From: Bacteroidales bacterium
GTDB taxonomy: Bacteria; Bacteroidota; Bacteroidia; Bacteroidales; F082
Length of the DNA: 64,000 bases
Direction of reading: 5' to 3'
NCBI GenBank assembly: GCA_016936505.1
Contig: JAFGXS010000034.1
Span: 25,266 to 89,265 of the forward strand
A model generated the notes under the pieces. The model made no database searches, was not told the DNA's origin, and saw nothing but the letters and a program-made list of their open reading frames with translations. Below are positions 59,827 through 61,018 of the stretch, in pieces; position 1 is the stretch's first letter; each line of letters begins with the position of its first letter. The position numbers and the translations under genes are program-made.

Positions 59827-60002
59827 ATGATTTTATTTAGTGTCCATTAACGAAAGCGCTGTTTCAAGAAGTTTCATTTGCTTCCGTAATTATTTCCATT
59901 AGCAAACTTAGAGAATCTTTTCCATTTTTCTCTGGCAGTATGGGGTTACATACGTTAAAAATCCTGAAAATTGACTACTTTCGCGTTGCGAAAATTTACT
60001 CC

Positions 60003-60458
60003 ATGCTCAACCTTTTCACCGACGAATACTTCATGAAAGTTGCTTTAAAAGAGGCCGAAACAGCCTTTGCCGAAGGTGAAATACCCGTTGGAGCCGTAGT
60101 AGTGTGCAACGAACAAATTGTAGCCAAAGCCCACAACCAAACCGAGCGTTTAAACGATGTAACAGCTCATGCCGAAATGCTGGCCCTTACAGCGGCTTCC
60201 AATGCTTTGGGAAGCAAATACCTGAAGGAATGTACCCTGTATGTTACTCTGGAACCCTGTACCATGTGCGCCGGAGCTGCCTACTGGACACAGGTAGGCC
60301 GACTGGTTTACGGTGCTACTGACGAAAAAAGAGGGTATTCCCTGCTCGAACACCTTGTTCTGCATCCCACCACATTGATTAAAACCGGAGTACTTCAGGA
60401 AGAAAGCTCAGCACTTTTACAACAATTTTTTAAGCTTCGCCGACCAAAGAAATCATAA
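60003..60458 (+). CDS. tadA: tRNA-specific adenosine deaminase
   Basis: EIPVGAVVV, HAEM, TLEPCTMC. Start refined to ATG 60003. Confidence 0.92.
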   Translation: MLNLFTDEYFMKVALKEAETAFAEGEIPVGAVVVCNEQIVAKAHNQTERLNDVTAHAEMLALTAASNALGSKYLKECTLYVTLEPCTMCAGAAYWTQVGRLVYGATDEKRGYSLLEHLVLHPTTLIKTGVLQEESSALLQQFFKLRRPKKS

Positions 60459-60536
60459 CCAACGGGCTTTGTGTGAGTTATTAACTTTTGTTCAAAACTC
60501 TTGTGAACAGATTGTGTAAAACCACGCTTATAACTA

Positions 60537-60569
60537 TTTGACTTTACTGGTTTTAGTTGCTTATATTTG
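60537..60569 (+). promoter_or_regulatory. Complete Bacteroidota sigma-A promoter: -33 TTTG (60537-40), 21-nt spacer, -7 TATATTTG (60562-69)
   Basis: Exact match to TTTG-N19-21-TAnnTTTG with no protein gene downstream on this strand. Confidence 0.8.
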
Positions 60570-60573
60570 TGTC

Positions 60574-60988
60574 AGCAGATGAAAATAAGTGCAGGTTCTT
60601 AACGGATGATGGGTGACGAAACAAAGGTAAAATGAAAACCGAAAGGTTTTGATGGAACCGGAAACCGAAACATTCAGCGGAAGTCTGAAAAGAAATCCGA
60701 GTCTTACACAAGAGCAACGTTGAAACCGGTTGACATCCTGAAAAAAGTTTATTCTTTCGAAGCTTTTTGGAAACAAAAAGTACGGTTGAACAGCGTGAAC
60801 ACAAAGTGAAACATGATATCTCTAAAGGATACAGAAAGAAAACTTTGGGAGTTAACCTGACATGTCAGAAGCTACGGCTGAAAGACAGAGACTCAGGCGC
60901 CCAACATAATCTGCCATCAATTCGGAAGCTACGGCTGAAGAAAAGGTGACCGGAAAACGATCCCTAAAGATGGTTTTCCGGTTTTTTT
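60574..60988 (+). ncRNA. Candidate large (~415 nt) structured non-coding RNA of unknown class
   Basis: Own promoter and terminator, nested long-range helices, two GAAA and two UACG tetraloop hairpins, purine-rich linkers, no credible ORF. Confidence 0.78.
60949..60988 (+). terminator. Intrinsic terminator of the candidate ncRNA
   Basis: ACCGGAAAAC (60949-58) / GTTTTCCGGT (60973-82) stem followed by a T-tract to 60988. Confidence 0.88.
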
Positions 60989-61018
60989 GTATCCCTACAT
61001 TTCGTTTGAACCTCTGTT

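What the first reader, a model, noticed from the sequence alone, without database searches (positions are those of the whole stretch)
60857..60942. Duplicated UACG hairpin module with tandem sheared G-A pairs, plus a 12-nt palindrome, in the ncRNA 3' domain
Seen: the 15-mer GAAGCTACGGCTGAA occurs exactly twice (60868-82, 60925-39). Each folds as helix / purine-rich internal loop / AGC(UACG)GCU. Copy 1 is closed by UGUC/GACA with an AGA/GAAA loop; copy 2 is closed by UUC/GAA with a GGA/GAA loop. A self-complementary 12-mer CTGACATGTCAG (60857-68) overlaps P2 and copy 1. Established: GGA/GAA 3x3 loops form stable consecutive sheared G-A pairs, often at protein or tertiary docking sites. Inference: repeated binding sites for a protein, and/or a palindrome that allows RNA dimerisation or a conformational switch.
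Basis: partly seen in the sequence, partly recalled or inferred. Interest (0 to 1): 0.6.

Follow-up and report, generated by a model that had tools for sequence, protein, structure and literature searches.

The report
Two UACG hairpins in new Bacteroidales RNA
The two look-alike hairpins are real, conserved parts of a previously undescribed ~410-nt non-coding RNA found across Bacteroidales, but their exact 15-letter identity, the G-A loop and the 12-letter palindrome occur only in this one genome.

Summary
Observation confirmed. The 15-mer occurs exactly twice (60868-82, 60925-39), nowhere else in the genome, and both copies fold as described.

Context: they lie in the 3' domain of a stand-alone structured RNA, running from the promoter box TATATTTG (60562-69) to the terminator (60949-88). 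It matches no Rfam 15 family. A covariance model of the 3' domain finds it in 58 of 151 Lentimicrobiaceae genomes. A second model finds it in 20 of 150 genomes of other Bacteroidales families, and in 0 of 146 genomes of other orders.

Both hairpins (H1, H2) are supported by compensatory base changes. H2's top, GC-UACG-GC, is kept order-wide, and A at loop position 2 is present in 41 of 41 sequences. H1's UACG is kept only within the family.

Not conserved:
- The 15-nt identity: other genomes share at most 7 nt between the two hairpins.
- The GGA/GAA loop.
- The palindrome: others have at most 8 nt, and 12-nt palindromes occur at chance frequency in the window.

Most likely the hairpins are rigid tetraloop-capped arms of an orphan RNA. 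G000's identical copies probably come from recent local homogenisation.

The gene sits next to tadA in most of the family. TadA recognises UACG loops, but that link failed further tests. The scan earlier noted other orphan ornate RNAs in Bacteroidota; whether they are related is unchecked.

The parts
60477..60498 (.). Degenerate copy of an operator-like palindrome (consensus TTATTAAC-N4-GTTAATAA) upstream of the RNA promoter
   Evidence: Conserved block in the genus alignment. The near-perfect palindrome lies upstream of the RNA in 8 loci, 3 of them from other families.
60537..60569 (+). Bacteroidota-type promoter: TTTG/TTGAC at 60537-42 and TATATTTG at 60562-69
   Evidence: Exactly one TAnnTTTG box lies at a matching distance upstream in every full-length homologue.
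60575..60580 (+). P1 5' strand GCAGAU, which pairs with 60909-14
   Evidence: Compensatory variants GCAGG/CCUGC, GCAAG/CUUGC, GCAGA/UCUGC and GCAAA/UUUGC.
60592..60597 (+). 5' CAGGUU, one of two possible partners of AACCUG (60854-59)
   Evidence: Duplex energies of -9 to -13.7 kcal/mol in most family members. No covariation.
60854..60859 (+). AACCUG segment; its CUG is the first three bases of the palindrome
   Evidence: Pairs either with 60592-97 or with CAGG at 60894-97. The second pairing covaries within the genus, CCUG/CAGG versus CUUG/CAAG.
60857..60868 (+). 12-nt palindrome CUGACAUGUCAG, specific to this genome
   Evidence: Present. No homologue has a palindrome longer than 8 nt here. 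Chance frequency in the window.
60863..60887 (+). Hairpin H1: UGUC / AGA / AGC-UACG(60873-76)-GCU / GAAA / GACA. Contains 15-mer copy 1 (60868-82).
   Evidence: Fold. Stem covariation. Within the family the loop is UACG in about 22 of 30, otherwise UAUG, UCCG or CACG.
60894..60897 (+). 3' CAGG, which closes the H1 arm with CCUG (60856-59)
   Evidence: It is only CAG outside the genus.
60909..60914 (+). P1 3' strand AUCUGC
60915..60948 (+). Hairpin H2: CAUC / AA / UUC / GGA / AGC-UACG(60930-33)-GCU / GAA / GAA / AA / GGUG. Contains 15-mer copy 2 (60925-39).
   Evidence: Fold. Nine of 12 pairs have compensatory changes. CUACGG in 28 of 30 family members and UACG in 8 of 11 distant homologues.
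60949..60988 (+). Intrinsic terminator: long hairpin followed by a U-tract
   Evidence: Ten of 14 pairs have compensatory changes. The downstream gene is convergent.

Best explanation
The flagged stretch holds two peripheral hairpin arms of a new, stand-alone, ornate ncRNA. The RNA is about 410 nt here and 290-600 nt in relatives, and it is found in part of the order Bacteroidales.

H1 branches from the conserved core between helix P1 and the AACCUG segment. H2 follows directly on the 3' strand of P1 and sits just before the terminator.

Each arm is a stack of short helices interrupted by purine-rich internal loops and capped by a UNCG-class tetraloop, cUACGg. The caps most likely act as rigid folding nuclei that do not dock. 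They contrast with the many GNRA loops elsewhere in the molecule (inferred).

In H2 the loop is under extra, sequence-specific selection. Position 2 is the exposed base of a UNCG loop, and it is A in all 41 sequences. H2 therefore probably presents that adenine to a partner, either the RNA's own core or a protein (inferred).

The perfect 15-nt identity of the two modules in this genome is recent homogenisation. Five or six lineage-specific substitutions all make the copies more alike. Short ectopic gene conversion seeded by the shared GAA...CUACGG is the likeliest cause (inferred).

The 12-nt palindrome is a chance by-product of the CUG of a long-range helix lying next to the genome-specific UGUC/GACA stem.
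For: A real RNA gene:
- Conserved promoter and terminator, no ORF, z = -5.1 for the whole fold.
- No Rfam family matches, even at E up to 10.

Distribution:
- Model R1 finds it in 58 of 151 family genomes, in 13 of 17 genera.
- Model R2 finds it in 20 of 150 genomes of other Bacteroidales families and in 0 of 146 genomes of other orders.
- The distant hits share the promoter, the 5' motif, P1 and H2.

Helices:
- 91.5% of cells are paired, against 31-47% when partners are slid.
- 24 of 32 pairs have changes on both sides, and 0 of 500 shuffles reach the observed score.
- H1's outer and inner helices covary in the 12-sequence subgroup.

Loops:
- H2 is CUACGG in 28 of 30 family members, while the terminator loop takes 12 different sequences.
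- The 11 distant H2 loops are UACG (8), UAUG (2) and UAAG (1).

G000-only features:
- The longest string shared by H1 and H2 is 15 nt in G000 and at most 7 nt in the 29 others. The longest palindrome is 12 nt in G000 and at most 8 nt elsewhere.
- Alignment A3 shows the G000-specific changes. In H1: C>G, G>C and C>U. In H2: U>G and G>A. All move towards the other copy.
Against:
- No structure probing and no partner identified, so both the 'non-docking cap' role and the 'presented adenine' role are inferences.
- The invariance of A could partly reflect shared ancestry. The sample is 41 sequences with few independent loop changes.
- The global fold around AACCUG is ambiguous, with three competing partners.
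- Convergent selection for one common binding partner would explain the homogenised 15-mers as well as gene conversion does.
Confidence: 0.6

Rival explanations
1. Repeated protein-binding sites. The two UACG modules each bind one copy of the same protein, or the two halves of a dimer, and the internal loops are part of the site.
For: - The loops are far more conserved than the terminator loop.
- A is invariant at H2 loop position 2.
- In G000 the two modules became identical through 5-6 convergent changes. One of them breaks an A-U pair in H2, which common-partner selection could explain.
Against: - H1's loop is not conserved outside the family: CACG, UUCG, CGCG, GAAA, UAAG and others.
- Internal-loop sequences differ between H1 and H2 in every genome but this one, and vary in size from 1x1 to 4x4.
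- No protein gene is consistently linked across the order.
Confidence: 0.2
2. Anticodon-loop mimicry. The UACG hairpins imitate the U33-A34-C35-G36 loop of tRNA-Arg(ACG). They bind, or are edited by, the homodimeric deaminase TadA encoded directly upstream, so the RNA would be a TadA substrate, sponge or regulator.
For: - The gene lies immediately downstream of tadA on the same strand in 23 of 28 informative family loci, while the outer flanking genes differ between genera.
- TadA needs a UACG motif in a stem-loop (PMC12255301).
- There are two such loops, and TadA is a dimer (the dimer is from my own knowledge).
Against: - The 11 homologues in other families are never next to tadA, yet keep H2.
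- Five family loci are not next to tadA but keep the loops.
- In 29 other-family tadA loci, only one weak UACG-capped hairpin (UUA-UACG-UAA) lies downstream.
- Editing needs the 7-base loop YUACGAA, and single changes abolish it. Here the loop is a closed 4-nt cUACGg with G-C or G-G at the two 3' positions.
- The UAUG and UAAG variants lack the required C.
Confidence: 0.05
3. Conformational switch. The AACCUG segment (60854-59), which overlaps the palindrome, alternates between the 5' CAGGUU (60592-97) and the 3' CAGG (60894-97), re-modelling the H1 arm.
For: - Both partners exist, and both pairings are favourable.
- The 3' pairing covaries within the genus.
- The 5' pairing reaches 8-10 bp in other genera.
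Against: - RNAalifold prefers a third, local partner in the 12-sequence subgroup.
- None of the alternatives varies in that subgroup, so covariation cannot decide.
- The 3' partner shrinks to CAG outside the genus.
- The palindrome itself plays no conserved part.
Confidence: 0.12
4. Palindrome-mediated RNA dimerisation through CUGACAUGUCAG.
For: A 12-bp self-duplex is stable in isolation, at -18.8 kcal/mol.
Against: - Absent from all 29 other family members.
- 12-nt palindromes occur at chance frequency in the window.
- The segment is buried in two helices in the predicted fold.
Confidence: 0.03

Closest known systems
cUNCGg (YNMG-class) tetraloop hairpins, such as the cUACGg and cUUCGg caps of rRNA helices
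   Same: A four-base loop, UACG, closed by C-G (or U-A / U-G). The stems covary while the loop stays fixed. Family variants UCCG and CACG fit the YNMG pattern.
   Different: In rRNA such caps commonly interchange with UUCG or GNRA (own knowledge). Here H2 never does so in 41 sequences and always keeps A at position 2. That points to recognition beyond stability.
Orphan large ornate bacterial ncRNAs: OLE, ROOL, GOLLD, raiA
   Same: A stand-alone promoter-to-terminator gene, several hundred nt long, with many GNRA-capped helices, patchy distribution and no known function.
   Different: No sequence or structure match to any of them in Rfam 15. Confined to Bacteroidales. Not found on phage or plasmid records. 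No associated protein genes.
TadA target hairpins: the tRNA-Arg(ACG) anticodon arm and edited bacterial mRNAs
   Same: A UACG core in a hairpin loop, and a tadA gene directly upstream in most of the family.
   Different: A 4-nt closed loop rather than the 7-nt YUACGAA loop. The tadA linkage is lost outside the family.

Membership tests
UNCG/YNMG tetraloop hairpin | Four-nucleotide loop Y-N-M-G closed by a C-G (or wobble) pair on a Watson-Crick stem | tested here: met
   H1 and H2 both read C-UACG-G. Family variants are UCCG and CACG. UAUG and UAAG are exceptions. The stems covary.
UNCG/YNMG tetraloop hairpin | Characteristic 3D fold: U-G trans-wobble with a syn G | not testable with these tools
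   Needs NMR, crystallography or chemical probing.
Tandem sheared G-A internal loop | 5'-GA-3' opposite 5'-GA-3', flanked by helices | tested here: met
   In G000, H2 has GGA (60924-26) opposite GAA (60937-39). This is met in sequence only.
Tandem sheared G-A internal loop | Motif kept in homologues, as expected of a functional docking site | tested here: not met
   Only G000 has GGA/GAA. The others have AAA/AGA, AAC/AAU, 2x2 or 1x1 loops.
Kink-turn | Three-nt bulge on one strand followed by tandem G-A / A-G pairs between a canonical and a non-canonical stem | tested here: not met
   The loops are symmetric (3x3) or 3x4, and no strand is continuous apart from a G-A pair.
TadA substrate / tRNA-Arg(ACG) anticodon-loop mimic | UACG core in a hairpin loop | tested here: met
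   Both loops. The motif requirement comes from PMC12255301.
TadA substrate / tRNA-Arg(ACG) anticodon-loop mimic | Seven-base loop YUACGAA | tested here: not met
   CUACGGC in H2 and CUACGG[CGA] in H1, with the flanking C and G paired. Single changes abolish editing.
TadA substrate / tRNA-Arg(ACG) anticodon-loop mimic | A-to-I editing or TadA binding | not testable with these tools
Any Rfam 15 family, including OLE, ROOL, GOLLD, raiA and Bacteroidales-1 | Covariance-model score at or near the gathering threshold | tested here: not met
   No hit at gathering score over the window. The only hit at E up to 10 is a spurious fungal sRNA, 15 bits against a threshold of 65.
Housekeeping RNAs (RNase P, tmRNA, SRP, 6S) | Being the genome's copy of that RNA | tested here: not met
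   RNase P, tmRNA and the small SRP RNA are found on other contigs. No 6S model hits this locus. The RNA is multi-branched, and R1 found no match in 14 of the 23 genomes of its own genus. In the two of these whose tadA-downstream region was examined, one a single-contig assembly, it is missing there too.
Loop-palindrome dimerisation site (HIV-1 DIS type) | A conserved self-complementary sequence exposed in a loop | tested here: not met
   Not conserved and lies within helices.

The most novel reading that the evidence does not exclude
The twin UACG hairpins are decoys of the tRNA-Arg(ACG) anticodon loop. They engage the two active sites of the TadA dimer encoded directly upstream. The RNA would then be a dedicated regulator, sponge or edited substrate of the bacterial A-to-I editing enzyme, at least in Lentimicrobiaceae.
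Probability: 0.05. Interest if true: 0.85.

Novelty: new member of a known kind. Interest (0 to 1): 0.45.

Why it matters
The hairpins are ordinary motif types. They do, however, mark the most conserved 3' module of an RNA family that is absent from Rfam 15 and spread over many Bacteroidales families.

Knowing which features are conserved tells an experimenter where to aim mutations, probing and pull-downs:
- Conserved: H2's GC-UACG-GC with its invariant loop A, helix P1, the junction strands, and an upstream operator-like palindrome.
- Accidental: the exact repeat, the G-A loop and the palindrome.

The 3' domain also gives a compact, specific search handle for the family. If H2's exposed adenine proves to be a docking element, it would be an unusual use of a UNCG-type loop.

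Tried and rejected
- **Rfam.** Searched at gathering score and at E up to 10; nothing.
- **Divergent housekeeping RNA.** Rejected, because RNase P, tmRNA and SRP lie elsewhere.
- **6S replacement.** No Rfam 6S model hits the genome. Bacteroidales-1 is not detected anywhere in the family, whether or not this RNA is present, so there is no complementary pattern. The RNA is branched and dispensable.
- **Strict 5'-motif scans of public collections.** The genome collection returned only the same genus. Of 55 metagenome hits, only 3 were real and the rest were chance. A family-level 5' pattern hit 1 of 400 genomes in other families, and that hit was coding sequence. Covariance models were what extended the family.
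- **TadA link.** Tested four ways and weakened.
- **tRNA-Arg(ACG) comparison.** Impossible, because the MAG has no such tRNA assembled.
- **Resemblance to the 16S helix-14 region (cUACGg next to GCAGCAG).** Recalled from memory. It could not be checked because the MAG lacks 16S, so it was dropped.
- **Paralogues in the genome.** None found with crude patterns.
- **Phage and plasmid collections.** No match.
- **Full-length covariance model.** Not possible within the 400-column limit, so only the 3' domain was modelled.

Full report
**Observation**

The 15-mer GAAGCTACGGCTGAA occurs at 60868-82 and 60925-39. It occurs nowhere else in the 3.04-Mb assembly. The palindrome CTGACATGTCAG is at 60857-68.

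- H1: UGUC / AGA / AGC-UACG-GCU / GAAA / GACA.
- H2: CAUC / AA / UUC / GGA / AGC-UACG-GCU / GAA / GAA / AA / GGUG.

The palindrome is statistically unremarkable. The window has 17 perfect 12-nt palindromes, against 21 +/- 5 in Markov simulations.

**Context**

The stretch lies in a 560-bp gap between a tadA-like deaminase gene (59940-60458, + strand) and a convergent FG-GAP gene.

A Bacteroidota-type promoter (TTTG at 60537-40, TATATTTG at 60562-69) and a strong intrinsic terminator (60949-88) bracket about 410 nt with no credible ORF. This stretch folds far better than shuffled sequence (z = -5.1).

Rfam 15 gives nothing at gathering score. At E up to 10 it gives only a spurious 15-bit hit. 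RNase P RNA, tmRNA and the small SRP RNA lie on other contigs.

**Homologues**

BLAST found the RNA in 6 of 23 other genomes of the genus. Record titles place these in Lentimicrobiaceae, Bacteroidales.

I built a covariance model of the 3' domain (R1) from 8 genus sequences. It finds full-length matches in 58 of 151 family genomes, in 13 of 17 genera.

A second model (R2), built from 30 family sequences, gave:
- matches in 20 of 150 genomes of other Bacteroidales families, at E 1e-7 to 1e-13;
- no match in 146 genomes of other orders of the phylum.

The distant hits are genuine. They share several features with the family sequences:
- the promoter;
- a 5' motif, CAUCAAGUGAGCGAUAAAAGG, against CAGCAGGUGAAGAUAAAGGG within the family;
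- helix P1;
- hairpin H2.

Lengths run from about 290 to 600 nt.

The RNA is dispensable. R1 found no match in 14 of 23 genomes of its own genus. In two of these, one a single-contig assembly, tadA is followed directly by other genes.

**Structure of the 3' domain**

On the 30-sequence alignment:
- 91.5% of cells form standard pairs, against 31-47% when partners are slid.
- 24 of 32 pairs show changes on both sides.
- No shuffle out of 500 reaches the observed covariation score.

Both modelled pairs of H1 covary. Nine of H2's 12 pairs covary. In a 12-sequence subgroup, H1's outer helix covaries as well.

P1 is well supported by compensatory variants: GCAGG/CCUGC, GCAAG/CUUGC, GCAGA/UCUGC and GCAAA/UUUGC. 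In the window its strands are GCAGAU (60575-80) and AUCUGC (60909-14).

H2 begins directly after P1. H1 branches between the AACCUG segment and P1.

**What is and is not conserved**

*Loops*
- H2 reads CUACGG in 28 of 30 family members; the other two have CACG.
- Of 11 distant homologues, H2 has UACG in 8, UAUG in 2 and UAAG in 1.
- A at loop position 2 is therefore present in 41 of 41 sequences.
- H1 has UACG in about 22 of 30 family members, otherwise UAUG, UCCG or CACG, and one has an insertion. Outside the family H1's loop is free: CACG, UUCG, CGCG, GAAA, UAAG and others.
- For comparison, the terminator loop takes 12 different sequences within the family.

*Module layout*
- In most genera both arms have the layout outer helix / 3x3 or 4x4 A-rich loop / 2-4 bp / tetraloop.
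- The loop sequences differ between the arms and between genomes. At the position of G000's GGA/GAA, H2 carries AAA/AGA, AAC/AAU, 2x2 or 1x1 loops.

*Exact repeat and palindrome*
- The longest string shared by H1 and H2 is 15 nt in G000 and at most 7 nt in the 29 others.
- The longest palindrome is 12 nt in G000 and at most 8 nt elsewhere.

**Origin of the exact repeat**

In the genus alignment, the relatives read:
- H1: GAACCUACGGGCGAA or similar.
- H2: GAAGCUACGGCUUAG or similar.

G000 alone changed three H1 positions towards the H2 state: C>G and G>C (flipping a pair) and C>U. It also changed two or three H2 positions towards the H1 state. One of these, U>G, breaks an A-U pair.

Five or six substitutions that all converge suggest short ectopic gene conversion between the two arms, which lie 57 nt apart. 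Selection for a common partner would fit as well. This step is inference.

**Alternative pairings**

AACCUG (60854-59) includes the first three bases of the palindrome. It has three candidate partners:
- The 5' CAGGUU (60592-97), with favourable energies and up to 8-10 bp in other genera.
- The 3' CAGG (60894-97). This pairing covaries within the genus, CCUG/CAGG against CUUG/CAAG, and reverts in one lineage.
- A local CCGGG, which RNAalifold prefers in one subgroup.

The data cannot decide among them. A switch is possible but unproven, and the palindrome as such has no conserved role.

**The tadA lead**

In 23 of 28 informative family loci the RNA lies directly downstream of tadA, while the outer flanking genes differ. 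TadA edits A34 in a UACG loop, and bacterial mRNA targets share that motif (PMC12255301). This is a striking coincidence with twin UACG loops.

It weakened on testing:
- Editing requires the 7-base loop YUACGAA, and single changes abolish it. Here the loop is a closed 4-nt cUACGg.
- Five family loci and all 11 distant loci are not next to tadA, yet keep H2.
- The UAUG and UAAG variants lack the required C.
- tadA loci in 29 other families carry only one weak UACG-capped hairpin (UUA-UACG-UAA) downstream.

I keep this reading at about 5%.

**Verdict**

The flagged stretch holds two real, selected hairpin arms in a new Bacteroidales ncRNA, and H2's loop probably has a specific contact. The function of the RNA remains unknown.

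Earlier notes of this scan describe other orphan ornate RNAs in Bacteroidota and Lentimicrobiaceae. I could not check whether they belong to the same family.

Noticed in passing
window 60477-60498; also L074, L075, L087, L095, L100, L149, L153, L155: An operator-like 20-bp palindrome, TTATTAAC-N4-GTTAATAA, lies about 90-130 nt upstream of the RNA promoter in 8 loci. Three are from other Bacteroidales families, and the upstream genes differ. G000 has a degenerate copy. It is probably the binding site of a regulator of this RNA.
   Followed up: partly
window 59940-60458 and 60537-60990; loci L073-L102: The tadA-then-RNA gene order is kept in 23 of 28 informative Lentimicrobiaceae loci, although both outer neighbours change. 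It is absent in all 11 homologues examined from other families.
   Followed up: yes
whole assembly G000: Aragorn finds 48 tRNAs but no tRNA-Arg(ACG). No 16S 341F-region sequence is present either. Both are presumably unassembled in this 92%-complete MAG.
   Followed up: partly
G000 and 150 family genomes: In G000, none of three Rfam 6S-type models (RF00013, RF01685, RF01693) gives a hit. Across the family sample, which was searched only with RF01693 (Bacteroidales-1), no genome scores above that model's threshold. Since RF01685 rang in no control genome, its blank is uninformative. The 6S RNA of this family is therefore undetected or divergent.
   Followed up: partly
window 60575-60597 and 60854-60914: The RNA carries two GCAGRU-like 5' segments and two ACCUG-like 3' segments, so several mutually exclusive long-range helices are possible.
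   Followed up: partly
G122:C100:45767-46414: Two R1 matches lie about 400 nt apart on the same strand in one family genome. This may be a tandem duplicate of the RNA gene.
   Followed up: no
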